Shown here one piece after another: positions 879-30,583 of a stretch of 41,006 bases of DNA; positions within the stretch are counted from its first letter, which is position 1, and every line of letters begins with the position of its first letter. The stretch comes from Nitrospinota bacterium (GTDB taxonomy: Bacteria > Nitrospinota_A > UBA7883 > JADGGD01). The position numbers and the translations under genes are program-made. The notes under the pieces are model-generated. The model saw nothing but the letters and a program-made list of their open reading frames with translations. It had not been told where the DNA came from and did not search any database. The DNA lies in NCBI GenBank assembly GCA_015229165.1, contig JADGCD010000003.1, forward strand, positions 1 to 41,006. Direction: 5' to 3'.

Positions 879-1487
879 TCACGGCGCGGAAGGGGTTCCC
901 GTATTCCCGTCGGACTTGCCGAGCTGCTTCTGGAGCTCTTCGGCTCCGGACATGTGCCCCATTTTCAGCTTGTCCATCTTCATGAGAACCGATTCGATGG
1001 GGCGTTCGGCGACCGGCGTCTTGTAGAGGGCAAACAGCGCAGGATAGTCGCCGATCAGCTTTTTCATGTCCTCCTCCCGGAAGTCGGACTCCCAGTTCCC
1101 AACTAGTGCATTCCAGACTTGGGCGATGACCACCGCCTGCGCCTCCGTCACCCCGCGAAACTCCAGATCGGGGCGGGTCTTCCGGTAGTTCTGGACGAAG
1201 CTTTGCATGTGGGGAACCACCGCCACGAACGGCGCGCCGCACCGGGAGCAGTACATCTTGATCCGCTCCTCGGAATGGCACTGGGTGCAGACCTTCTTCG
1301 CCAGCGCATAGGCCTCCGTCGGCTGGTACTCGACATACCCGGACGCCTTCAGCCAATCGAGGGCTTTCGCCCGGAGCGGATTGTCGACATTGGCGACCAC
1401 CCCTAGAGCCACCGCAAACACAAGGGCGACAGTGATCGGGATGATTTTCCGCTTTCGATCAGAGGATGACGTTTCGTTCAGTTTCAT
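879..1487 (-). CDS. Membrane-anchored monoheme c-type cytochrome with additional CxxC
   Basis: N-terminal hydrophobic helix, CTQCH heme-binding motif, then YCSRCG and a downstream HM. Co-oriented with the TlpA-like and CcdA-like genes. Confidence 0.7.
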   Translation of the reverse strand: MKLNETSSSDRKRKIIPITVALVFAVALGVVANVDNPLRAKALDWLKASGYVEYQPTEAYALAKKVCTQCHSEERIKMYCSRCGAPFVAVVPHMQSFVQNYRKTRPDLEFRGVTEAQAVVIAQVWNALVGNWESDFREEDMKKLIGDYPALFALYKTPVAERPIESVLMKMDKLKMGHMSGAEELQKQLGKSDGNTGTPSAP

Positions 1488-1498
1488 TCCGTTTGAAG

Positions 1499-1516
1499 AA
1501 GCAGATTGCGTGCCAG
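1499..1516 (-). promoter_or_regulatory. sigma54 (-24/-12) promoter for the cytochrome c-TlpA-CcdA unit
   Basis: Minus strand reads CTGGCACGCAATCTGCTT, a GG-N10-GC close to the consensus YTGGCACG-N4-TTGCW. Confidence 0.75.
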
Positions 1517-1574
1517 CATGCCCACCACCCGAACGATTTCCGGGCAGTGCCCGCTCAGATCGCTTCCAACGCGG

Positions 1575-1591
1575 TTGGTATATTCCTTGCT
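1575..1591 (+). promoter_or_regulatory. sigma54 (-24/-12) promoter for the USP-radical SAM operon
   Basis: TTGGTATATTCCTTGCT with GG(1577-78)-N10-GC(1589-90), 55 nt before ATG 1646. Confidence 0.65.
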
Positions 1592-1645
1592 CCCCCCTGT
1601 CGCCAGATGCAATGCGGGTTTTTCAGGAGAGGGGCATTACGACCT

Positions 1646-2830
1646 ATGTACCGAAACATTCTTGTGACCCTGGACAACTCCCGCTACTCGCTCTGGGGGC
1701 TGGAGCGGGCGCTGGAGCTGGCGACGAATTTCAAGGCGACACTCGTGGGGAACCATGTCTACGCCTCCCGGCTTCACGAGAAGCGCTTCGTCCAGATGGA
1801 GCCGGGACTGCCGGCCCAGTATCAGGAGCCTGCGGAGCTGCAGAAGCAGCGGGACATCCACGCCGAGCTTATCGAACGGGGATTGCAGGTCATCTCCGAT
1901 TCCTACCTCGACGTCTTCCAGAGCCGGTGCGACTCGAGCGGCGTCGCCTGCTCCCGCAAGATGATGGAGGGGAAGAACTATCTTGAACTGGTGAGAGACA
2001 TCGACCAGTCGTCCTACGACCTGGTCGCCATCGGGGCCAGGGGGCTGGGCGAGGTGGAGGACGCGGCCCTCGGATCGGTCTGCGAGCGGGTGACGCGGCG
2101 GATTTCCATCGACGCGCTGGTCATGAAAAACGACAAGCCGCTGCGCGGCGGGCATGTGGTGGTCGGTGTTGACGGCAGCGAACAGTCGTTCGCCGCCGTC
2201 GCCTCGGCCATCGCCATGTGCAAGCACATGGGGTGCCGCATGACACTCCTTGCGGTCTTCGATCCCTTCTTCCATTACAAGGCGTTCGACACCATCGCCG
2301 AAGTCCTCTCGGAGGAGGCGGGAAAGACCTTCCGGTTCGACGAGCAGGAGAAGCTCCACAAGGAGATCATCGACTCGGGGCTCGAGAAGATCTACCGGGA
2401 CCATCTGGATACCGCCGCGCTCATGGCGAAGAAGGAGGGGATCGAGGCCGCCTCCGAATTGCTGGCGGGCAAGCCGTACCACGCGATTCTTCAGTGGATC
2501 GGGGACCGGGAGGTTTCCCTGCTCGCCCTCGGCAAAGTGGGCGCCCACTGCGTGGACGAACAGGATATCGGCTCAAACACCGAAAAGCTGCTCCGCTACG
2601 CCCCCTGCAACGTCATGCTGGTCAGCCGGAAGGTCAAGCCCGATGACGACGCCGACATGCCGTTGGCCGAGCTGAACTGGACCGACGAGGCCCAGGAGAT
2701 GCTGATGCGGGTTCCGGGCTTCGTCCGGAACATGGTCCGGGGACACATGGAAAAGAACGCCCGCAACGCCGGGGCCGACACCATCACCGGGGCGATGATG
2801 CGGGAGGCCCGCGAAAAGATGGGAATGTGA
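1646..2830 (+). CDS. Tandem universal stress protein with C-terminal PCP_red (BchB C-terminal-like) domain
   Basis: Start moved to MYRNILVTLDNS (AGGAG upstream). Two USP domains (GSVCERVTR, VVVGVDGSEQS, GSNTEKLLRYAPCNV) and a C-terminal WTDEA..L.RVPGFVR..VR...E motif. Confidence 0.88.
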   Translation: MYRNILVTLDNSRYSLWGLERALELATNFKATLVGNHVYASRLHEKRFVQMEPGLPAQYQEPAELQKQRDIHAELIERGLQVISDSYLDVFQSRCDSSGVACSRKMMEGKNYLELVRDIDQSSYDLVAIGARGLGEVEDAALGSVCERVTRRISIDALVMKNDKPLRGGHVVVGVDGSEQSFAAVASAIAMCKHMGCRMTLLAVFDPFFHYKAFDTIAEVLSEEAGKTFRFDEQEKLHKEIIDSGLEKIYRDHLDTAALMAKKEGIEAASELLAGKPYHAILQWIGDREVSLLALGKVGAHCVDEQDIGSNTEKLLRYAPCNVMLVSRKVKPDDDADMPLAELNWTDEAQEMLMRVPGFVRNMVRGHMEKNARNAGADTITGAMMREAREKMGM

Positions 2831-2831
2831 C

Positions 2832-4691
2832 ATGACGTTCGTCCCCTACGCCGTCTCGTGGAACCTGACCGGCCGCTGCAATCTGGCGTGCGACCATTGC
2901 TACCTCGACGCCAACGCCCGCACCTGCGGCGACGACGGGGAGCTGACCACGGAGCAGGCGATCGACACGGTGGGCCAGATCGCCGCGCTAAACCCCGAAT
3001 CGGTCCTCATCCTGACCGGGGGGGAGCCGCTCTTGCGCCACGACCTCGACCGGATCGTCGGGGCGGCCGCGGCGGCCGGGTTGATGGTCGTTCTGGGAAC
3101 CAACGGCGTCCTGCTCGACCGGAGCGCCGCACGGCGGCTCAAAGAGGCGGGACTCGCCGGTGTCGGCGTCAGTATCGATTCGCTCGACCCCCTGATCCAC
3201 GACACCTTCCGGCGGAAGCGCGGAGCCCTTTCGGCGTCCATGCAGGGGCTCGCTTTCGCCCGCGAGGAGGGGTTAAGCGTCCAGGTGCAGACCACCGTCA
3301 TGCGGTCGAACATCCGGGACATCCCTCTCATCGCCCAGTGGGCCCACCATATCGGCGCGAAGGTCTTCAACCTCTTCTTCCTCGTCTGCGTCGGACGGGG
3401 GGAGCAGATGACCGACATTTCGCCGACGCAGTACGAAGAGACGCTGCGCTGGGCCGCCTCGGAGAAGGACCGCTTTCCCGGCATGATGGTCCGCCCCAAA
3501 TGCGCCCCCCACTTCAAGCGAATCCTCCACCAGAACAACCCGGACGACCCGCTCCTCTCCACCTATGTCGCCGCCTGCCGGGCCGGAACCCACTACCTGC
3601 GGATCACCCCGCACGGCGCGGTGACCCCCTGTCCCTACATGGAGACCCAGGCCGGCTCGCTGACGCGGACCTCGTTGTCCGCCATATGGGCCGACGCGCC
3701 GGAGTTGACCCGGTTCCGCCGCCCCGATTACGAAGGGAAATGCGGACGGTGCCGCTACCGGCTCCTCTGCGGCGGTTGCCGCGCGCGGGCGCTGGCGACG
3801 GTCGGCGACCCGATGGGGGAAGACCAGTGGTGCGTTTACGAGCCGGTCGGCGTCGAGGCGCCCATCACCACCGTCGATACCGACGCCAAATTCGGCGTAA
3901 AAGGTGAAAGCAGCCTGGCGTGGGACGCCGACGCCGAGGCGATACTCGGGAAGATTCCCTTTTTCGCCCGCCCGATGGTCCGGATGGGGGTCGAGCGCCG
4001 GGCGATGGCGGAGAAGGTCGAACGAATCACCCTCGAATACTTCCGGCGCGTCTCCCCCTCCCCCCGGATGTTCGGCGACGCGGCGCCCCCCTCCCCCGTC
4101 ACGGTCGAAACGGCGACGGACGCCGCCGAAATTCCGTGGACGCCGGACGCGAAGGAGCGGGTCTCCCATGCGCCCGAGTTCGTCCGCCCCGGCATCCCGA
4201 AGCTGATGCAGAAACGGGCGTGCGAACGGGGCAAAACGGTCATCGACAGCGCGTTCCTGAGCGAAATCCGGGACGAGTCAATGATGCTGGCCTCCCGGCG
4301 GATAAAGAAGCTCGGAATCGACGAGCTTTCCATGGACGCATGGGACGCGGCGCGGAAGAAGCTTTTCGCCAAATCCCCTGAGAAGATTCAGGTCATCGAT
4401 ACCATCACAGAGCTGCTCAACGGCCGCGAACAGAAGAACGGACCTATCGTCGAACGTTTTTCCGGCTACATGGCCGACTCCCTGGGGAAAAAGCTCGGGT
4501 GGTCGAAAGAAGCGCGCCTGCGCATGGAGCGTGCGCCCGCCTTCGTCCGGGAGAAGGCGGCCCGGGCGGTGGAAGGATTCGCCCGGGAGAACGGATACCG
4601 GATCGTGAACGAAGAAGCATTGGACAAAGCGCTGGCGCAGATGCCTTTTGGCGCCATGACCGGCGCGTCGCCGTCGCCCGACCGGACGTAA
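2832..4691 (+). CDS. Radical SAM/SPASM protein, AhbD/NirJ-like, with three C-terminal PCP_red domains
   Basis: CNLACDHC, GGEPLLR, GTNG, FFLVCVGRG, PKCAPH; SPASM cysteines CRAG..CPY..CGRC..CGGCRARA..DQWC; three W-x3-A-x6-P-x-F-x-R repeats. Confidence 0.88.
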   Translation: MTFVPYAVSWNLTGRCNLACDHCYLDANARTCGDDGELTTEQAIDTVGQIAALNPESVLILTGGEPLLRHDLDRIVGAAAAAGLMVVLGTNGVLLDRSAARRLKEAGLAGVGVSIDSLDPLIHDTFRRKRGALSASMQGLAFAREEGLSVQVQTTVMRSNIRDIPLIAQWAHHIGAKVFNLFFLVCVGRGEQMTDISPTQYEETLRWAASEKDRFPGMMVRPKCAPHFKRILHQNNPDDPLLSTYVAACRAGTHYLRITPHGAVTPCPYMETQAGSLTRTSLSAIWADAPELTRFRRPDYEGKCGRCRYRLLCGGCRARALATVGDPMGEDQWCVYEPVGVEAPITTVDTDAKFGVKGESSLAWDADAEAILGKIPFFARPMVRMGVERRAMAEKVERITLEYFRRVSPSPRMFGDAAPPSPVTVETATDAAEIPWTPDAKERVSHAPEFVRPGIPKLMQKRACERGKTVIDSAFLSEIRDESMMLASRRIKKLGIDELSMDAWDAARKKLFAKSPEKIQVIDTITELLNGREQKNGPIVERFSGYMADSLGKKLGWSKEARLRMERAPAFVREKAARAVEGFARENGYRIVNEEALDKALAQMPFGAMTGASPSPDRT

Positions 4692-5347: not shown

Positions 5348-6061
5348 ATGAACATCCGGTACACACCCGCTCTTGCGCTGATGGCGGTCATCGCAGCGGG
5401 CTCTTCCGACGTGGTCGCCGCCAAGGATCACGGACTGGCCACGTTCAGGGACAAGCTGAGCTACAGCATCGGCGCCCAGATCGGCGGCAACCTGAAGCGG
5501 GACAAGCTCGATCTGGAGATCGAAACGGTTCTGCGCGGCGTGAAAGACGCCTTCCTTGCCAAGGGATCCGTCCTGACGACGGAGGAGATGCAGGAGACGC
5601 TCGTCGCCTTCCAGCAGCGTCAGGAGAAGGATAAGGCGGCATGGCGCAAGTCCGAAGGGGAGAAGAACCGGCGCGCCGGGAAGGCGTTCCTCGAAAAGAA
5701 CCGCGCCGCCACGGGGGTAATCACCACCGCCAGCGGGTTGCAGTACAAGGAACTAAAGAAGGGAAAGGGGCCGCGTCCCGGCCTCGCCGACGAGGTGAAA
5801 GTCCATTACCGGGGTTCGCTCATCGACGGGACGGAATTCGACAGCTCCTATCCGGCGGGCGAACCGGCGGTCTTTGGGCTCAACGGGGTCATCCCCGGAT
5901 GGGTCGAAGGACTGCAATTGATGCCGCTGGGCTCCACCTACCGGTTCTTCATCCCCCCCCATCTCGCCTATGGCGACCGGGGGGCGGGGACTACCATAGG
6001 CCCAGACGCCACCCTGATATTCGACGTGGAGCTTCTGGACATCCGGACGGCCAGGAACTGA
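5348..6061 (+). CDS. fkpA: FKBP-type peptidyl-prolyl isomerase (FkpA/Mip-like)
   Basis: Signal peptide, KLSYSIG (FKBP_N), TTASGLQY, VHYRGSLIDGTEFDSS, VIPGWVEGL, IPPHLAYG, LIFDVELL. Confidence 0.93.
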   Translation: MNIRYTPALALMAVIAAGSSDVVAAKDHGLATFRDKLSYSIGAQIGGNLKRDKLDLEIETVLRGVKDAFLAKGSVLTTEEMQETLVAFQQRQEKDKAAWRKSEGEKNRRAGKAFLEKNRAATGVITTASGLQYKELKKGKGPRPGLADEVKVHYRGSLIDGTEFDSSYPAGEPAVFGLNGVIPGWVEGLQLMPLGSTYRFFIPPHLAYGDRGAGTTIGPDATLIFDVELLDIRTARN

Positions 6062-6086
6062 TCGCGACCGACGCAAGGAGCCACGC

Positions 6087-6506
6087 ATGACCAGTACTCT
6101 CGCCCGGACCGTGACGTCGCTGGGTCTTTTCCTGCTCATCTGCGCCCCCCCGGCGGCGCGCGCCGCCCACGACGGACTCACGACCTACGTCTTCTACTAC
6201 CACGCAGACTGGTGAACCGCCTGCGGGAAGATGGGTCCCATCTTCGAACAGTTGAAAAGGGAAAGCGCCGACCCCGGGGTCGTGTACGTCAGGTTCGACC
6301 TGAGCGACGACCTCGGCGCGGCTATCGCCAAGGAGGTAGCCGCCGGATACGGCGTAGCGGATATTTTCGCCTACGCTCGGCGGACCGGTTTTATTGTGCT
6401 GGTGGACGCCAAGACGAAAAAGGCTGTCGAGACGCTGGACATCACCATGAGCGCCGACCGCATGCGGCAGGCGATCAGGGCCGCCGCCCGTCGGTCGGGC
6501 GCATGA
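6087..6506 (+). CDS. Exported thioredoxin-fold selenoprotein (UxxC; in-frame TGA at 6213-6215 read as Sec)
   Basis: AAGGAG RBS at 6075-6080, ATG 6087, signal peptide (..AARA), then FYYHADW-TGA-TAC-GKMGPIFEQL, in frame with the track ORF 6231..6506. The TGA sits at the first Cys of the Trx WCxxC motif. Confidence 0.85.
6227..6245 (+). promoter_or_regulatory. Bacterial SECIS-like stem-loop
   Basis: Perfect 8-bp stem GAAGATGG/CCATCTTC with apical GGUC. The stem starts 11 nt and the loop about 19 nt after the UGA, consistent with bacterial SECIS geometry. Confidence 0.75.
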
Positions 6507-6525: not shown

Positions 6526-7560
6526 ATGAGCGGGATGCGGCGCTGGCTGCCGGCTTTTGCGGCGGGGTTTGTCATTCTCGCAGCGACGCCCGCCGCCCGG
6601 GCCGAGACGCGCGAGTTCCGCATGACTATCGAGCAGACCACCATCACCGTGGCGCCCGACCTCGATTACGCGGTCTTCGGCTACAACGGCCAGACGCCAG
6701 GGCCGCTGATCCACGTCCGGCAGGGGGACGACGTGGTCGTCCATGTCACCAACAACACCCTGATGCCCCATACCATCCACTGGCACGGCGTCTACCAGAC
6801 CGACAACTGGCGTCTCGACGGGGTCCCCGGCGTCACCCAGGAGGAGATCCGCCCCGCCGGGGGAACCTTCACCTACCGGTGGAAGGCGGAGAAAAGCGGG
6901 TCGCTCTGGTACCACTGCCACGTCAACGTCAGCGAGCATGTCGCCATCCGCGGGATGTGGGGGCCTATCGTGGTCGATCCCCTCACGCCGACCCCCGAGG
7001 AGAAGCGGGTCACCAAAGAGGCGCTCTTTATGCTCTCGACGTGGGACAGCCACTTCGCCGGGATGTGGGGTCAGGGAGGCGCCCCCCACGACATGCCCGA
7101 TTACTTTTCGGTCAACGCCAAATGCTTTCCGATCACCCACCCCCTTCGGGTGAAGAAGGGGGATGTGGTCCGCTTCCGCTTCTTCGCCGTCGGCATGTCG
7201 ATTCACACACTCCACCTCCACGGCCACGACATGCTGGTCACCCACAAGGACGGGACGCCGCTTCCGCAACCGTACTGGGTTGACACCCTGATGATTGGTC
7301 CGGGGGAGCGGTACGACGCCATCGTCGAGATGAACAATCCCGGACTCTTCATCTTTCACGACCATGTGGACTCCCACATGACCAACAACGGCAAGGACCC
7401 GGGAGGTCCGATCACCATTATCGAGTACGACGGGGTTAAGCGCCCCGATTTCTATATCTGGAAAGACAAGGAATACGACGCCAACTTCTTCTATTCGGAA
7501 TCGATGCGCCGAGGCTACGGCCTGTTCGAATGGAGCGGTTTCAAAGGAAAGGGACGGTAA
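6526..7560 (+). CDS. Two-domain multicopper oxidase, type C (Nitrosomonas blue copper oxidase/NcgA-like)
   Basis: Signal peptide. Domain 1 has HTIHWHG and WYHCHVNVSEHVAIRGM (T1 Cys/His/Met); domain 2 has HTLHLHGH and FHDHVDSH (no Cys). Confidence 0.9.
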   Translation: MSGMRRWLPAFAAGFVILAATPAARAETREFRMTIEQTTITVAPDLDYAVFGYNGQTPGPLIHVRQGDDVVVHVTNNTLMPHTIHWHGVYQTDNWRLDGVPGVTQEEIRPAGGTFTYRWKAEKSGSLWYHCHVNVSEHVAIRGMWGPIVVDPLTPTPEEKRVTKEALFMLSTWDSHFAGMWGQGGAPHDMPDYFSVNAKCFPITHPLRVKKGDVVRFRFFAVGMSIHTLHLHGHDMLVTHKDGTPLPQPYWVDTLMIGPGERYDAIVEMNNPGLFIFHDHVDSHMTNNGKDPGGPITIIEYDGVKRPDFYIWKDKEYDANFFYSESMRRGYGLFEWSGFKGKGR

Positions 7561-8603: not shown

Positions 8604-8901
8604 TCCGGATCGTTCTTCATCGCGGCGTGCGGTTTGCGCCGCAACGGAAAGTCAACAACGCAGTCAAACAGGACGACCTTCACTCTCCCCGCCGCATTGG
8701 ACAGGTTAGCGGCGGCTCATCGAAGGTTTTCACCGTCCATTCAGTAAATACCTACCGTTTGCCCTATGGAGATTTTCCAAGGCGGAAGTGAGCTGAAACG
8801 AACAAAGCGCTTTATCGGATATTTTATACCCATCATTGACTGACAAGTCGACGCCAAAAGCTTTTCCACCCTGTTGTCGTCCACCCATTCCGAAGACACA
8901 C

Positions 8902-8937
8902 CTCCTGACATGTCAGCCCGCTCCTGACATGTCAGGA
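8902..8937. promoter_or_regulatory. Tandem palindromic operator (2x CTCCTGACATGTCAG), candidate bEBP enhancer
   Basis: 15-bp direct repeat at 8902-8916 and 8921-8935, each containing the palindrome CTGACATGTCAG. The second extends to the 16-bp TCCTGACATGTCAGGA. Confidence 0.65.
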
Positions 8938-9034
8938 AGATTCAGTCAATAAGCCTCGACATCTCTCCCCTCCTTTCAGTCGCAATCGACACCCTATCAG
9001 CCGCATGGGGCAATTCACCCTGACAGGCGACCAT

Positions 9035-9539: not shown

Positions 9540-9594
9540 GAGAAACCCGATGACCATGACGGATATGCAATTACTCCGGAAAGGAGCATTCACG

Positions 9595-11508
9595 ATGAGA
9601 AGAATCAAAGCCTATACAGGTCTTGGCCTGTTCTTGACGCTCGCGCTCGCCATCGCGTCAGGTTGCGGCACAAATGGCGAGACCGGAAAGTGGCTGGACG
9701 GCTCCCGAGCCCCCGCGCCCACCGTGTCATTCACCCTGCCGCTCAACCTGGCGGTCAATGTGGCGACAAACACGCTGCTCACCGCCACCTTCAGCGAGGA
9801 GATGGACCCCGAGTCCATCAACACGACAACGTTTACCCTGATGAACGGCTCCGAAGTCATTTTGGGGACGGTCGGCTATGCGGGGGTGACTGCGGTCTTC
9901 ACCCCTGCGGTCGCGCTTTCGGACAGCACCACCTACACGGCGACGATCACGGTCGGCGCCAAATCGCGGGCCTATGGAACCAATCTCGATAACAACTACG
10001 TCTGGACCTTCACCACGGCGACTCCCGGCGGCGACATCCCGCCCGATATCACCCCGCCCATTCCCGGCCCCAATCCCGGTCCCTCGCCGGACCTGAGAGC
10101 CCCCCGGGTCACCTCCACGGTCCCCGCCAATCTGGCCACGGAGGTAGCGATCAATACGTCCATCATCGCGACGTTCAGCGAGGCGATGAACCCGCTGTCG
10201 CTTACCACCGCTAGCTTTACCGTGAAAAAGGGACTGGTCACGGTTCCGGGTACGGTTCTCCCCGTGGGGTTGACCGCGGTCTTTACTCCGAACGCCCCGC
10301 TTGACTCGAGCGCGGTCTATACCGCCACGATCACGACGGTCGCCGAGGATCTGGCCGGGAACAACCTAGCGGCCAACTATGTGTGGACCTTCACCACCGG
10401 CGCGCTGGTCGATATCATTCCCCCCACGGTGATCCTGACCGCCCCGCTGAACGGCGCCACCGGAGTGGCGATCAACACCAACGTCGTCGCGACCTTCAGC
10501 GAGGCGATGGCGCCCCTTTCCCTGACGCCCCTTACGTTTACGTTGCACAAGGGACTGGTTTCCATCGGGCATACGGTTCTTCCGCTGCTCGACGTGGCGA
10601 CCCTGAACCCCAGCGCCAACCTTGAGTACGACACGCTCTACACGGCCACCGTCACCGTCGGCGCAAAGGATCTGGCGAACAATGCGATGGTGGCGCCCTA
10701 TGTCTGGACGTTCAGGACCGCAGCGGCCCCGCCCGTCCTCTTCAACCTTGGGATTCTGGCGCCCTACGGCATCGCTTCGGCTGGTGGCGTCACCACCGGC
10801 GCGGCCCCGGTCAAGATCAACGGGAGCACGGTGCTGGATCCGCTCGACCAGTGCAACGCGGTAGCCGTCGGGGCCGCCGATGACTTCGGCCTCTGCGGTG
10901 GAAACCCGCCGCTGAACAACCTCCCGGGGGTCAGGGACTTTGTCATCACCCCCACTCACTCGGCGCCGGGGCCGGTCACTGCGGCTGCGGTGAAGGCTAC
11001 CTTGCTTACCAAGTGGGGAAACCTGTCTCCGGCCGGTCACCCGGGCGGGACGGTGCTGGGATGTGGAACCATCGGTAGCGCCGGAGGCGCGGGCGCCCTC
11101 ATCGGGTGCAACGGCAACTTCACGCTTCCCCCCGGAGTCTATATCTCCCAGACCTCATCGTCGATCGGTGTGGCGGGAAGCCTGGTTCTCGATGGCGGCG
11201 GCGATGCGAACGCCACCTTCATCTTCCAGGCGCCGTCATCGTTGACCACGGCGCCCAATACGACCATCACCTTGCAGAACGGGACCAAGGCCTCGAACGT
11301 CTGGTGGTACGTGGGGAGCTCGGCGACGCTCGGCTCGAATACCGCCTTTAAGGGAAACATCCTGGCTTCCGCCGCCATATCGATGGGAACCACCGCGACT
11401 TCGTGCGGGCGGCTCCTGTCGGGCGCGAGCGGAGCGGGGGCGTTCACCTTCCTGGGGAATACCGTGTCGGTGCCTGGCCATCCCAACGCGCCGGCCGGGT
11501 GCAACTAG
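9595..11508 (+). CDS. Lipoprotein with three Ig-like (Big_5) domains and a C-terminal DUF3494 ice-binding-like beta-solenoid
   Basis: AAGGAG before ATG 9595; lipobox ASGC; three repeats of P.V....P.N.A..VA.NT...ATFSE.M...YVWTF; C-terminal LPPGVY..LDGGGDANATFIFQ..ASNVWW.VGSSATLG..F.GNILA..GRLL. Confidence 0.88.
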   Translation: MRRIKAYTGLGLFLTLALAIASGCGTNGETGKWLDGSRAPAPTVSFTLPLNLAVNVATNTLLTATFSEEMDPESINTTTFTLMNGSEVILGTVGYAGVTAVFTPAVALSDSTTYTATITVGAKSRAYGTNLDNNYVWTFTTATPGGDIPPDITPPIPGPNPGPSPDLRAPRVTSTVPANLATEVAINTSIIATFSEAMNPLSLTTASFTVKKGLVTVPGTVLPVGLTAVFTPNAPLDSSAVYTATITTVAEDLAGNNLAANYVWTFTTGALVDIIPPTVILTAPLNGATGVAINTNVVATFSEAMAPLSLTPLTFTLHKGLVSIGHTVLPLLDVATLNPSANLEYDTLYTATVTVGAKDLANNAMVAPYVWTFRTAAAPPVLFNLGILAPYGIASAGGVTTGAAPVKINGSTVLDPLDQCNAVAVGAADDFGLCGGNPPLNNLPGVRDFVITPTHSAPGPVTAAAVKATLLTKWGNLSPAGHPGGTVLGCGTIGSAGGAGALIGCNGNFTLPPGVYISQTSSSIGVAGSLVLDGGGDANATFIFQAPSSLTTAPNTTITLQNGTKASNVWWYVGSSATLGSNTAFKGNILASAAISMGTTATSCGRLLSGASGAGAFTFLGNTVSVPGHPNAPAGCN

Positions 11509-29064: not shown

Positions 29065-29502
29065 ATGACACTGATTCGCAGAAGGGAACAGGGACTGGCG
29101 CGGCCTGCGGACTTTGATCCGTTCGGCGCCCTCTCGCTCCTCGACGAGTTCTGGCCCATGGCCCGGATGAACGAGGAGACCGGCTATCTCCCCACCATGG
29201 AGGTCAAAGAGACCGACGACGCCTACGCGATCCGGCTGGAACTCCCCGGCGTCGCCAAGGAGGACGTGAGGGTCCAGTTTGAAAACGGCATCCTGACCGT
29301 CTCCGGCGAAAAGAGGGACACCACCGAGGAGAAGTCCGAGCGGGTCTATCGCTCCGAAATCCGGTACGGCGCCTTCACCCGGTCGCTCCGGTTCAAGGAG
29401 GTCGACGGCGAGAAAATCAGCGCGAAACACGAGAACGGCGTCCTGACGGTCACCGTGCCGAAGAGCGCCAAGGTCCAGCCGAGGGCCATCGAAATCGCCT
29501 GA
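29065..29502 (+). CDS. Hsp20/alpha-crystallin small heat-shock protein
   Basis: GGAGG RBS; ELPGV.KEDV, LTVSGEK, YGAFTRS, A..ENGVLTVTVPK, I.I C-terminal motif. Confidence 0.95.
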   Translation: MTLIRRREQGLARPADFDPFGALSLLDEFWPMARMNEETGYLPTMEVKETDDAYAIRLELPGVAKEDVRVQFENGILTVSGEKRDTTEEKSERVYRSEIRYGAFTRSLRFKEVDGEKISAKHENGVLTVTVPKSAKVQPRAIEIA

Positions 29503-29522
29503 GCGGCCATGGCGCCCCGCGT

Positions 29523-29552
29523 CGCGGGGAGACACCAGTCGGTCTCCCCGCG
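29523..29552. terminator. Hairpin between convergent genes (possible terminator)
   Basis: Perfect 11-bp stem CGCGGGGAGAC-N8-GTCTCCCCGCG; no clear U tract. Confidence 0.45.
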
Positions 29553-29557
29553 CGCGC

Positions 29558-30583
29558 CTAGAACGTCAGCCGCACCCGCCACGTCGTATTGTTCTCGCCG
29601 CGATAGTAGAGGTAAAGCCGGTCTCCCTCCACCAGAAGTTCCGGCCCGTCGTAGCCGAAGCCGAGGGTGGGGTTTTCCAGTAATGGATTGCCGCTCCACC
29701 GTTTCCAACCCCGGTCGATATAGGCCGACCGGAGGATCGACGTCCCCCACCAACTCGACTCAAACCGGGGCGAACGCTCCGGCGTCACCGGCAACGCCGT
29801 CGCCCATTCATACGCCATGTAGTACCAGTTCCCCACCTTCACCACCGACGACCGGGCGCCGACGGTCCCGCTCTCCCATGCCTCGATCAGATCGAGAAAC
29901 GGTGTCGGCTGGCAGGTGAGCGCATCGAGCCGCTGCCCTGTGGCGTAGCCGATCCTGACGCTCCACGGTTCCCGCTTCGTCATGTGATACCAGACATGCC
30001 ACCGGCTCCCGTCGTGATACAGGGTCGGCGTGCCGACGTCGACGTCGGCGTAGTCAGCGCCGGGGGTGGGGACGCCCGGCATCAGCAGGCGCGACGGATC
30101 GTCGTCGGGGCGAATCGCCGGCCCCCGTTTCTCCCATGTCGTCCCGTCGCTCGACGTGGCCCAGCAGACGCTGTTAATGTCTTCGACGGCGGCTTTCCCT
30201 TCATAGAGCATGTGCCACGTTCCATCGACCTGCGCCACCGCCGGGAAGCTGGCCTGAAGCCGGTCGTACCACTCCCCTTTAAGCAAGACTTTGCCGCAAA
30301 AGGCGAAGGTCACTCCGTCTGACGAGGTGACATACCCGACGTCGTTCTCGGAGCCGTCGGTGTGGTCGATGAACCAGCCGCGCAGGAGGGGGCCGTCCCA
30401 TGCGAAGTGGGGGAAGTGGAAGCCGTCGATGGCCGCGCCGACCCGTTCGGCGGGGCCGACGGCGATGGAATGATCGAAGGGGGCGTCGGGGTTGAAGGAG
30501 TCGCCGGACGAGCCGCCGCACCGGGGGAGGGCCAGCCCCGCCGTCAGCAGGGCGGCCCCGCGCAAAAGCTGGCGCCGGTTCAT
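29558..30583 (-). CDS. Tat-exported lipoprotein, five-bladed beta-propeller glycoside hydrolase-like (GH43/32/130-type fold)
   Basis: MNRRQLL twin-Arg, Cys lipobox; repeated blades (SSDGVTF, P.V....G.WHMLYEG, ATSSDGTTWEK, GTP..WHVWY, GNPLL, DGP..LYLYY). Confidence 0.7.
   Translation of the reverse strand: MNRRQLLRGAALLTAGLALPRCGGSSGDSFNPDAPFDHSIAVGPAERVGAAIDGFHFPHFAWDGPLLRGWFIDHTDGSENDVGYVTSSDGVTFAFCGKVLLKGEWYDRLQASFPAVAQVDGTWHMLYEGKAAVEDINSVCWATSSDGTTWEKRGPAIRPDDDPSRLLMPGVPTPGADYADVDVGTPTLYHDGSRWHVWYHMTKREPWSVRIGYATGQRLDALTCQPTPFLDLIEAWESGTVGARSSVVKVGNWYYMAYEWATALPVTPERSPRFESSWWGTSILRSAYIDRGWKRWSGNPLLENPTLGFGYDGPELLVEGDRLYLYYRGENNTTWRVRLTF

What the first reader, a model, noticed from the sequence alone, without database searches (positions are those of the whole stretch)
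6087..6506. Hidden exported selenoprotein: UxxC thioredoxin with SECIS hairpin
Seen: RBS and ATG at 6087, a Sec-pathway signal peptide, then H-A-D-W-[TGA]-T-A-C continuing in frame into a thioredoxin body. A perfect hairpin (GAAGATGG-GTC-CCATCTTC, 6227-6245) follows the UGA, and its GGUC apex resembles the E. coli fdhF SECIS. Established: Sec replaces the nucleophilic Cys in redox motifs, and the bacterial SECIS lies just 3' of the UGA. Inference: a 139-aa periplasmic selenoprotein that ordinary gene callers truncate or call a pseudogene. It also lacks the usual cis-Pro loop (RRTG instead).
Basis: partly seen in the sequence, partly recalled or inferred. Interest (0 to 1): 0.85.

Follow-up and report, generated by a model that had tools for sequence, protein, structure and literature searches.

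The report
Exported thioredoxin-like selenoprotein gene, confirmed
A small gene that annotation cuts short at an internal TGA very probably encodes a secreted thioredoxin-like protein with selenocysteine in its active site, a new example of a familiar kind of bacterial selenoprotein.

Summary
There is an ATG at 6087 behind an AAGGAG, an in-frame TGA at 6213-6215 inside W-U-T-A-C, a perfect 8-bp hairpin at 6227-6245, and a 139-codon frame ending at 6506.

The single sequence proves little. Comparison with other genomes does:
- Six other genomes of the same order, whose record titles read Nitrospinota, Nitrospinaceae or Nitrospirae, carry the homologue at 28-58% identity. Two metagenome contigs carry it too. 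All have the TGA at the same codon.
- The hairpin is the same in all, except that one (G016) has one mismatched stem pair after a 3-nt insertion. Its K-[M/V]-G-P-I codons are identical in 81 of 81 same-residue comparisons, against 374 of 825 elsewhere in the gene.
- All 25 full-length homologues without the TGA have Cys at that position.
- The window's genome has selB and a second TGA-bearing gene (SelW-like). Relatives have selA, selD and tRNA-Sec.

The AlphaFold model is a thioredoxin fold. The whole family, Cys and Sec forms alike, has Thr-Gly where the cis-proline normally sits.

Public gene calls truncate the gene to 74 and 86 aa.

Verdict: a real selenoprotein gene, a new member of a known kind. 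Its biochemical role is not settled. Interest is moderate.

The parts
6075..6080 (+). Shine-Dalgarno-like AAGGAG, 6 nt before the start codon
   Evidence: Read directly from the sequence.
6087..6506 (+). Whole coding sequence of the selenoprotein: 139 codons plus the terminal TGA at 6504-6506
   Evidence: Translation with TGA=U. Homologues cover both sides of the TGA in one frame.
6087..6164 (+). Probable Sec-type signal peptide, residues 1-26, with cleavage probably after A-R-A
   Evidence: By eye only: a basic n-region, the hydrophobic run LGLFLLICAPP, then ARA|A. All 7 Sec forms and the 25 Cys forms have an N-terminal hydrophobic segment. In the model it is a low-confidence helix at 5-18. 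No signal-peptide predictor was available.
6213..6215 (+). Sec codon (UGA, codon 43)
   Evidence: In-frame TGA. It aligns with TGA in 6 related genomes and 2 metagenome contigs and with Cys in 25 of 25 full-length Cys homologues.
6213..6224 (+). Redox motif U43-T-A-C46, preceded by H-A-D-W
   Evidence: It lies at the N-terminus of helix 44-59 in the model.
6227..6245 (+). SECIS-like hairpin: 8-bp stem and a GUC loop at 6235-6237. The loop begins 19 nt after the UGA, so loop G and U are nt 23 and 24 counted from the U of UGA.
   Evidence: The hairpin alone has an MFE of -8.9 kcal/mol. 55 of 56 cells are paired across 7 genomes. Pair 30-48 is GC in 5 and AU in 2; pair 34-44 is AU in 4 and GU in 3. 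Its K-[MV]-G-P-I codons are identical in 81 of 81 same-residue comparisons, against 374 of 825 elsewhere.
6384..6389 (+). T100-G101 at the N-terminus of strand beta-3, the place of the usual Thr/Val-cis-Pro
   Evidence: Beta-3 is residues 102-107 in the AF2 model. T100 and G101 are conserved in at least 90% of 34 rows. The position of the cis-Pro is as described in PMC2757866 (passages).
5348..6061 (+). Upstream neighbour: FkpA-type FKBP peptidyl-prolyl isomerase. Its stop is 25 nt before the start of the selenoprotein gene.
   Evidence: PF01346 plus PF00254; NF008602 at 177 bits, below its cut-off of 198. It is a neighbour only in the same-genus genome G001.
6526..7560 (+). Downstream neighbour: two-domain multicopper oxidase. 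It starts 19 nt after the selenoprotein stop and is probably co-transcribed.
   Evidence: PF07732, PF07731 and PF00394. No NCBIfam equivalog above its cut-off. It is a neighbour only in G001.

Best explanation
Window 6087-6506 (+) is one gene for a 139-residue exported thioredoxin-fold selenoprotein.

Shown by comparison:
- The UGA at codon 43 is a conserved sense position. It is Cys in the wider family and TGA in every member found in this order.
- An 8-bp hairpin with a GUC loop, starting 19 nt downstream of the UGA, is conserved at the RNA level.

Inferred from the established bacterial mechanism:
- SelB, carrying GTP and Sec-tRNA(Sec), binds this hairpin and delivers selenocysteine to the UGA, so the ribosome reads through to the TGA at 6504.
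- The hairpin is built from the codons of a protein motif, K-M-G-P-I-F, that is itself conserved. The SECIS was therefore fitted into existing coding sequence.

Inferred from the sequence:
- An N-terminal signal peptide, cleaved around A26, sends the protein to the periplasm. This leaves a domain of about 113 residues with the order beta-alpha-beta-alpha-beta-beta-alpha and W-U-T-A-C at the start of helix 1.

Most likely chemistry, at about 55%: a periplasmic selenol/thiol-disulfide oxidoreductase. The selenolate of U43 attacks a substrate disulfide or another oxidised sulfur or selenium species, and C46 resolves the selenenylsulfide.

The family replaces the otherwise near-universal cis-proline with Thr-Gly and has no buried acidic residue six positions before the nucleophile. 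Its substrate handling must therefore differ from that of thioredoxin, DsbA or PDI.
For: Gene and recoding:
- The frame, TGA and hairpin are as described.
- Six other genomes have the homologue with exactly one in-frame TGA, out of 60 relatives searched. Counting the window's genome, that is 7 of the 18 genomes of its order. The TGA falls at the same codon in Y[YF][HY]A[DN]W-U-x-x-C.
- Two further members, from a metagenome scan whose pattern did not require the hairpin, carry the same hairpin.
- All 25 full-length Cys-form homologues have Cys at that column. The exhaustive search gave 630 representatives at E<=1e-3 and 54 at E<=1e-10.
- A tree puts the 8 Sec forms and one Cys form (P0006) in one clade with SH-aLRT 95.

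Hairpin:
- 55 of 56 cells are paired, with one compensatory pair (GC in 5, AU in 2) and one A-U to G-U pair.
- The K-[MV]-G-P-I codons are identical in 81 of 81 comparisons, against 374 of 825 (45%) elsewhere and 79 of 147 in other columns with an invariant residue.
- It meets all four published bSECIS constraints: loop 3-9 nt, stem 4-16 bp, G in the first two loop positions, spacing 16-37 nt, and MFE <= -7.5 kcal/mol (PMC13188914 Fig. 2 legend). Here the loop is GUC, the stem is 8 bp, the spacing is 19 nt and the MFE is -8.9 kcal/mol.

Sec machinery:
- selB is in the window's genome at 346 bits (cut-off 242) with a 630-aa open frame.
- A SelW-like gene in the same genome has a TGA at its C-x-x-U site, followed by a hairpin that also has a GUC loop.
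- Among relatives that carry the gene, selA is present in 4 of 5, selD in 5 of 5 (each with one TGA) and tRNA-Sec in 4 of 4.
- TGA is an ordinary stop for 3 of 7 neighbouring genes with Pfam support, and for this gene itself.

Fold:
- AF2 gives mean pLDDT 89.4 and the thioredoxin topology.
- Foldseek's top hits are thioredoxins at E = 3e-5.
- VIA-align gives thioredoxins at Z 10-10.9, rmsd 2.4-3.3 A, with 88-98 residues aligned.
- A profile of the family hits PDI a-type domains and thioredoxins in the PDB, over the N-terminal half only.
Against: - selA was not found in the window's genome.
- selD gave only weak matches there, 42.6 bits against a cut-off of 125.
- No tRNA-Sec was found there: aragorn listed 39 tRNAs, none of them Sec; the best RF01852 match scored 42.6 bits, under the gathering score of 47; nothing was found on the selB contig. 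The genome is only 73.5% complete and lies in 346 contigs, so this does not decide the matter.
- There is no expression, read or selenium evidence.
- Single-sequence folding is unremarkable (z = -0.46).
- Covariation is thin because the hairpin hardly varies. There is one compensatory pair, and 29 of 500 shuffles reach the observed score.
- No Rfam family matches.
- The window protein scores 22.3 bits on PF00085, under the cut-off of 23.5.

For the proposed chemistry in particular:
- The cis-Pro is missing, and the abstract of PMC13269488 reports that substituting the cis-proline abolishes turnover in DsbA.
- Gene neighbourhood is not conserved beyond the genus, so context gives no support for any particular substrate.
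Confidence: 0.85

Rival explanations
1. It is a selenoprotein, but not a disulfide-exchange enzyme. Without the cis-proline, the U-x-x-C pair (perhaps with H39) binds a metal, Cu or an Fe-S cluster, or handles an inorganic substrate. In this genus it might serve the multicopper oxidase encoded 19 nt downstream.
For: - T-G replaces the cis-Pro across the whole family.
[quoted passage not shown] 2007.
- The abstract of PMC13269488 says that substituting the cis-proline abolishes turnover in DsbA.
- A multicopper oxidase is the next gene in G000 and G001.
Against: - The multicopper oxidase is a neighbour in only 2 of 7 genomes, both of one genus. The others have unrelated neighbours: a CdhD-like gene upstream in 3, and a sensor kinase, RecG or IspD downstream.
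- H39 is not invariant. It is Y in G003, and E or Y in some Cys forms.
- The N-terminal half is most like the catalytic a-type domains of PDI.
Confidence: 0.2
2. The TGA is a true stop. On this reading the locus is a decayed gene, or a 42-codon leader followed by a separate ORF starting at ATG 6231, as automatic annotation implies.
For: - Public gene calls start after the TGA: P0002 is 74 aa, P0181 is 86 aa, and P0003 and P0126 start at M-G-P-I.
- TGA is a normal stop in this genome.
- selA, selD and tRNA-Sec were not found in the window's genome.
Against: - The same TGA is kept in 9 assemblies whose proteins are only 28-58% identical, and residues are conserved on both sides of it.
- Cys homologues are continuous across the site.
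- A product starting at M49 would lack the signal peptide, strand beta-1 and the first redox residue.
- The frozen synonymous sites point to an RNA element.
- selB is present.
Confidence: 0.03
3. The UGA is read through, but not as selenocysteine. The cause would be near-cognate Trp or Cys insertion, or a changed genetic code.
For: The frame is open and conserved across the TGA. tRNA-Sec was not found in the window's genome.
Against: - TGA ends this very gene in 3 of the 7 genomes (G000, G001, G015) and ends 3 of 7 neighbouring genes. The code is therefore not changed.
- The position is the nucleophilic Cys of a CxxC motif, the classic Sec/Cys pair.
- A SECIS-type hairpin sits at the canonical distance.
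- selB is present in the window's genome, and the full machinery is present in relatives.
Confidence: 0.03

Closest known systems
Sec-containing thioredoxin (listed as 'Thioredoxin (Trx), PF00085, UxxC' in the table of PMC13188914, passages seen)
   Same: - U-x-x-C replaces C-x-x-C at the N-terminus of helix 1 of a thioredoxin fold.
- The best structural matches are thioredoxins.
- A SECIS hairpin lies inside the coding sequence just after the UGA.
   Different: - This protein has an N-terminal signal peptide.
- It has Thr-Gly instead of the cis-Pro.
- It has H-A-D-W rather than W-A-x-W before the nucleophile, and no acidic residue at position -6. The thioredoxin motifs used in this comparison are recalled, not tested.
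- It scores below the PF00085 cut-off (22.3 against 23.5 bits) and far below TIGR01068 (23.8 against 96.8).
Exported UxxC selenoproteins of the thiol:disulfide interchange, DsbA-like, DsbG-like and TlpA-like groups (PF13098, PF01323, NF041057, cd02966 in the table of PMC13188914)
   Same: They are secreted thioredoxin-fold proteins with U-x-x-C, predicted by the same Sec/Cys-pair logic, and their function is likewise uncharacterised.
   Different: - Different sequence families. Only 8 of 34 alignment members touch PF13098, and weakly.
- No NCBIfam selenoprotein model is matched above its cut-off.
- This protein has the minimal fold, with no inserted helical domain.
Catalytic a-type domains of protein disulfide isomerase, ERp46 and TXNDC5
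   Same: These are the best profile matches in the PDB (E = 8.6e-18 to 1e-16). They share (F/Y)-x-A-x-W-C-x-x-C-K-x-L/M-x-P and a later D-x-T.
   Different: - The match covers only profile positions 24-83.
- The C-terminal half, including the cis-Pro loop, does not match.
- These are eukaryotic multidomain proteins with Cys, not Sec.
E. coli fdhF SECIS (recalled, not tested here) and the consensus bSECIS model (PMC13188914 Fig. 2 legend)
   Same: A hairpin directly 3' of the UGA, with G then U in the apical loop at nt 23-24 counted from the U of UGA. All four model constraints are met.
   Different: - Here the stem is a perfect 8 bp with a 3-nt loop, or a 5-nt GGUCC loop if the closing G-C pair opens.
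- There is no bulged U.
- The sequence is invariant across an order instead of varying from gene to gene.
A second TGA-bearing thioredoxin-like family met in the metagenome scan (Y-A-D-W-U-x-x-C-R-R-x-G-P; loci L056, L057, L061-L063, L065, L067-L073, L075-L077)
   Same: The same [HY]-A-D-W-U-x-x-C start of the motif, an N-terminal hydrophobic segment, and hairpins after the UGA.
   Different: It keeps a proline in the expected loop (V/I/L-P-x-F), has different hairpin sequences and positions, and lacks the T-G signature.

Membership tests
Bacterial selenoprotein gene (SelB/SECIS-dependent UGA recoding) | The in-frame UGA aligns with Cys in homologues (a Sec/Cys pair) | tested here: met
   All 25 full-length Cys-form rows of alignment A1 have C at the column of U43. 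Two further rows (P0003, P0126) begin after it.
Bacterial selenoprotein gene (SelB/SECIS-dependent UGA recoding) | The UGA is conserved at the same codon in orthologues, with the protein conserved on both sides | tested here: met
   7 of 7 genomes of the order that have the gene, plus 2 metagenome contigs.
Bacterial selenoprotein gene (SelB/SECIS-dependent UGA recoding) | bSECIS hairpin: loop 3-9 nt with G in its first two positions, stem 4-16 bp, 16-37 nt after the UGA, MFE <= -7.5 kcal/mol (PMC13188914 Fig. 2 legend) | tested here: met
   Loop GUC, 8-bp stem, 19 nt spacing, -8.9 kcal/mol. It is conserved and its synonymous sites are frozen, 81 of 81.
Bacterial selenoprotein gene (SelB/SECIS-dependent UGA recoding) | Sec machinery (selA, selB, selC, selD) in the same genome | tested here: inconclusive
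   selB is present (346 bits). selA, selD and tRNA-Sec were not found in the 73.5%-complete genome. In relatives that carry the gene, selA is present in 4 of 5, selD in 5 of 5 and tRNA-Sec in 4 of 4. A second TGA-bearing gene (SelW-like) is in the same genome.
Bacterial selenoprotein gene (SelB/SECIS-dependent UGA recoding) | Selenium is actually incorporated into the protein | not testable with these tools
   This needs 75Se labelling or mass spectrometry.
Thioredoxin family (PF00085 / TIGR01068) | Score at or above the curated cut-off | tested here: not met
   PF00085 scores 22.3 bits against 23.5. TIGR01068 scores 23.8 against 96.8. 32 of 34 alignment members match PF00085 at E<=0.01.
Thioredoxin family (PF00085 / TIGR01068) | Thioredoxin fold with W-C-x-x-C at the N-terminus of helix 1 | tested here: met
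   AF2 model with pLDDT 89.4 and the order b-a-b-a-b-b-a. Thioredoxins match at Foldseek E = 3e-5 and VIA-align Z 10-10.9. The motif is W-U-T-A-C.
Thioredoxin family (PF00085 / TIGR01068) | [quoted passage not shown] | tested here: not met
   G101 precedes beta-3 (residues 102-107). There is no Pro in residues 64-139. T-G is conserved in at least 90% of 34 rows.
Curated thioredoxin-like selenoprotein families in NCBIfam (SaoT NF040730, HUIPC NF047660, VPGUxxT NF041383, TUGYCR NF053656, TsoB NF045694) | Match above the model's cut-off | tested here: not met
   None of these is listed for the window protein at E<=1. Among the 34 alignment members there are only weak matches to NF045694 (12 members, best E = 2.3e-5) and NF053656 (2 members).

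The most novel reading that the evidence does not exclude
The exported H-A-D-W-[C/U]-x-x-C family is a branch of the thioredoxin fold that has given up the cis-proline 'lock'. It uses its selenolate/thiolate pair to bind or transfer a metal (Cu or Fe-S) or an inorganic chalcogen species in the periplasm, not to exchange protein disulfides. The Nitrospinota forms would then be the first selenium-based version of such a site, in one genus coupled to a multicopper oxidase.
Probability: 0.15. Interest if true: 0.65.

Novelty: new member of a known kind. Interest (0 to 1): 0.4.

Why it matters
- It corrects an annotation. Public records call this gene as 74-aa and 86-aa fragments, and no curated model recognises it.
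- It adds a secreted member to the selenoproteome of a Nitrospinota lineage. The only paper in the held library that contains both 'Nitrospin*' and 'selenoprotein' is the BSepDB database paper. That paper ranks genomes labelled Nitrospinota or Nitrospinaceae among the ten richest in selenoprotein genes (passages).
- The locus is a clean example of a SECIS hairpin written into the codons of an already conserved peptide motif (K-M-G-P-I-F) and then frozen across an order.
- The family is a natural case of a CxxC/UxxC thioredoxin fold without the cis-proline. Recent work calls that residue a universal catalytic lock (PMC13269488, abstract), so the family gives a direct test of that claim.

Tried and rejected
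- Word-index protein search with the read-through protein: no hit at E<=1e-3. The exhaustive HMMER search and a profile search then found the family.
- Rfam: no match at gathering level in the whole window. A loose search of 6190-6290 gave only a spurious miRNA hit (E = 1.4). No curated bacterial SECIS model fits.
- tRNA-Sec nested in or beside selB, an arrangement mentioned in PMC13188914: nothing was found on the 2.4-kb selB contig.
- Function from gene context: FKBP, the selenoprotein gene and the multicopper oxidase sit together only in the same-genus genome G001. A CdhD-like gene lies upstream in G014, G005 and G015, and a Usp/radical-SAM pair lies nearby in G003. I rejected context as a basis for naming a substrate.
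- The other TGA-plus-hairpin coincidence in the window (TGA 29500, hairpin 29526) is an ordinary gene end followed by a hairpin, not a second recoding site.
- Exact-hairpin scan of 185,579 species genomes: 11 hits. Six are the homologues already found and five are chance matches without an open frame. No further lineage carries this exact element.
- Metagenome scan without the hairpin in the pattern: 22 hits. Two belong to this family, 16 (15 distinct) to a second family, and four are chance matches.
- Sequencing runs: none was listed and no RNA holder was listed. The TGA could not be checked in reads. Its presence in 9 independent assemblies stands in for that check.
- DNA of a Cys-form homologue, especially P0006, was wanted to see whether the hairpin is absent there.
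- I could not see whether BSepDB or the supplementary tables of PMC13326102 and PMC13188914 already list this family. Supplements are closed, and only passages of the main texts were read. That the family is unlisted is therefore not established.
- Complex prediction and the protein-atlas search were not used. Neighbouring genes alone did not justify a complex job.
Full report
**1. The observation**

- AAGGAG lies at 6075-6080 and the ATG at 6087.
- The N-terminus is hydrophobic (MTSTLARTVTSLGLFLLICAPPAARA|A).
- Then comes Y-Y-H-A-D-W, a TGA at 6213-6215, and T-A-C-G-K-M-G-P-I-F, all in one frame down to a terminal TGA at 6504-6506. That is 139 codons.
- The hairpin GAAGATGG-GTC-CCATCTTC occupies 6227-6245.

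Table-11 ORF listing splits the frame into a 42-aa piece and pieces starting at 6212 or 6231.

On its own this is weak evidence.
- The 61-nt stretch folds no better than shuffles (z = -0.46).
- The window's + strand contains 15 perfect 8-bp hairpins. Two of them follow some TGA triplet at 16-37 nt. The second follows an ordinary gene end at 29500.

**2. Comparative evidence for recoding**

I searched 60 relatives with the read-through protein, reading through stops. Six other genomes, all of the same order, have a homologue at E = 1.7e-38 to 2.8e-13 and 28-58% identity, and each has exactly one in-frame TGA.

A profile search of all 18 genomes of the order gave the same seven, the window's genome included, and no Cys form.

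In all seven the TGA is the same codon within Y[YF][HY]A[DN]W-U-x-x-C...K[MV]GPIF. Each has an ATG with a purine-rich stretch before it and a hydrophobic N-terminus 42-57 codons upstream of the TGA.

The exhaustive HMMER search found 630 representatives at E<=1e-3 and 54 at E<=1e-10. I aligned 34 sequences: 7 Sec forms, 25 full-length Cys forms and 2 fragments. All 25 Cys forms have Cys at the column of U43, inside H-A-D-W-C-x-x-C.

Public gene calls for the Sec forms are fragments.
- P0002 is 74 aa and covers residues 66-139 of the window's protein.
- P0181 is 86 aa, on an 8761-nt contig, the same length as G003's contig C77, which carries the homologue.
- P0003 and P0126 start at M-G-P-I.

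The Cys forms that carry a name in their source are called 'thioredoxin family' or 'thioredoxin domain-containing' proteins of Acidobacteriota or Thermoanaerobaculia MAGs.

**3. The hairpin**

Across the seven genomes the stretch AAGRTGGGTCCCATCTTY is invariant.
- 55 of 56 stem cells pair.
- The outermost pair is G-C in five genomes and A-U in two. Both changes fall at third-codon positions.
- One inner pair is A-U in four and G-U in three.
- Because so little varies, the covariation statistic is modest: 29 of 500 shuffles reach the observed score.

The stronger signal is at synonymous sites. The codons for K-[M/V]-G-P-I are identical in 81 of 81 same-residue comparisons. The figure is 374 of 825 (45%) elsewhere in the gene and 79 of 147 in other columns with an invariant residue.

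The element meets all four constraints of the published bacterial SECIS model, which I read in the Fig. 2 legend of PMC13188914.
- The loop is 3 nt, GUC, with G first and U second.
- The stem is 8 bp.
- The loop starts 19 nt after the UGA.
- The MFE of the hairpin alone is -8.9 kcal/mol.

Counting from the U of UGA, the loop G and U are nt 23 and 24. From memory these are the same positions as in E. coli fdhF; I did not test this.

A scan of 185,579 species genomes for the motif plus the exact hairpin returned 11 places. Six were these same homologues, in records titled Nitrospinota (3), Nitrospinaceae (1) and Nitrospirae (2) MAGs. Five were chance matches with no open frame.

A metagenome scan with a pattern that did not include the hairpin returned two more members of the family (L060, L064). 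Both carry the same hairpin.

**4. Sec machinery**

In the window's genome (73.5% complete, 346 contigs):
- selB is present at 346 bits against a cut-off of 242.
- selA was not found.
- selD gave only weak matches.
- tRNA-Sec was not found.

In relatives that carry the gene, selA is present in 4 of 5, selD in 5 of 5 (each with one in-frame TGA) and tRNA-Sec in 4 of 4.

The window's genome also holds a SelW-like gene (PF10262, 63.9 bits) with a TGA at its C-x-x-U site. It is followed by a hairpin whose loop is again GUC, at nt 26-28.

TGA is an ordinary stop in this genome. It ends 3 of 7 neighbouring genes and this gene itself. A changed genetic code is therefore excluded.

**5. The protein**

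Pfam and NCBIfam give only sub-threshold thioredoxin matches: PF00085 at 22.3 bits against 23.5, and TIGR01068 at 23.8 against 96.8. No curated selenoprotein family is matched.

AlphaFold2 with the 34-row alignment gives mean pLDDT 89.4. The elements are beta-1 33-39, alpha-1 44-59, beta-2 65-71, alpha-2 75-87, beta-3 102-107, beta-4 113-117 and alpha-3 123-138. This is the minimal thioredoxin fold, with U43 at the start of helix 1.

Structural and profile matches:
- Foldseek ranks thioredoxins first (E = 3e-5, TM 0.46-0.63).
- VIA-align gives thioredoxins at Z 10-10.9, rmsd 2.4-3.3 A, with 88-98 residues aligned.
- A profile of the family matches PDI a-type domains best, but only over its N-terminal half.

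G101 sits at the N-terminus of beta-3, where the cis-proline belongs (position as described in PMC2757866). It is preceded by T100. Both are conserved in at least 90% of the 34 rows, and the window protein has no proline after residue 63.

A tree of 8 Sec forms and 77 Cys forms places all Sec forms, plus one Cys form (P0006), in one clade with SH-aLRT 95. The order inside the clade is unresolved. One origin of the Sec state is therefore not excluded, but it is not shown either.

**6. Mechanism and function**

The recoding mechanism, in which SelB bound to the hairpin delivers Sec-tRNA(Sec) to the UGA, is inferred from the established bacterial pathway and fits every test I could make.

Export is inferred from the signal peptide by eye.

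For the chemistry, I commit to a periplasmic selenol/thiol-disulfide oxidoreductase in which U43 attacks and C46 resolves, at about 55%.

The main rival, at about 20%, is that without the cis-proline the U-x-x-C pair binds a metal. PMC2757866 notes that this residue may prevent metal binding to CxxC. The abstract of PMC13269488 reports that substituting it abolishes turnover in DsbA.

Context does not decide between the two. The arrangement of FKBP isomerase, selenoprotein gene, two-domain multicopper oxidase and transglutaminase-like gene is shared only with the same-genus genome. The other genomes have different neighbours.

**7. Novelty**

UxxC thioredoxin-fold proteins are the commonest type of bacterial selenoprotein. 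The review table lists Trx, thiol:disulfide interchange, DsbA-like, DsbG-like, TlpA-like and several motif-named thioredoxin-like families (PMC13188914, passages).

This gene is a new member of that kind. It is not recognised by the curated models available here, and public annotation truncates it.

Whether BSepDB already lists it I could not check. Supplements are closed, and only passages of PMC13326102 were read. A search for 'Nitrospin*' together with 'selenoprotein' found only that paper.

Two features go beyond the routine: the SECIS written into a conserved peptide motif and frozen across an order, and the family-wide loss of the cis-proline.

- No sequencing run was listed.

Noticed in passing
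Own genome, contig C188:274-480 (-), locus L083: A SelW-like (Rdx, PF10262, 63.9 bits) gene with an in-frame TGA at its C-x-x-U site. It is followed by a 7-bp hairpin whose loop is also GUC, at nt 26-28 after the U of UGA. This is a second probable selenoprotein gene in the same genome and hints at a lineage-typical SECIS loop.
   Followed up: partly
Metagenome loci L056, L057, L061-L063, L065, L067-L073, L075-L077: A second family of TGA-bearing thioredoxin-like ORFs (Y-A-D-W-U-x-x-C-R-R-x-G-P). It has an N-terminal hydrophobic segment, keeps a proline in the expected loop, and has its own hairpins after the UGA. There are 16 loci, 15 of them distinct. I did not identify them further.
   Followed up: partly
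Relatives G001, G003, G005, G014, G016 (selD places listed): selD carries one in-frame TGA in 5 of 5 relatives, so SelD is probably itself a selenoprotein in this order.
   Followed up: no
window 1466-4691 (+): A pair of unusual fusions. One is a universal-stress-protein domain plus a PCP_red domain (454 aa). The other is a radical SAM/SPASM protein with two PCP_red domains (619 aa). Its best NCBIfam matches are NirJ2 and AhbD, at 294 and 277 bits, below their cut-offs of 500. The pair recurs in G001, and in G003 it lies next to the selenoprotein homologue.
   Followed up: partly
Loci L052:4699-5688, L053:3234-4271, L055:2632-3735: In G014, G005 and G015 the gene directly upstream of the selenoprotein homologue, on the same strand, encodes a protein of 329-367 aa. 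Its only Pfam match is the C-terminal part of CdhD (PF03599, 51-58 bits). No counterpart was found beside the gene in the window.
   Followed up: partly
window 29500-29560 (+): A TGA followed 23 nt later by a perfect 8-bp hairpin. The TGA ends an ORF that by eye looks like a small heat-shock protein (no family search was run), and the downstream frame shows no coding-like continuation. This is an ordinary stop with a hairpin, not a recoding site.
   Followed up: yes
window 9550-11508 (+): A 652-aa protein with three Big_5 Ig-like domains and an ice-binding-like domain (PF13205, PF11999).
   Followed up: no
window 8901-8939 (-): A long inverted repeat (16 pairs, 7-nt loop), flagged as terminator-like, in the gap after the transglutaminase-like gene.
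   Followed up: no
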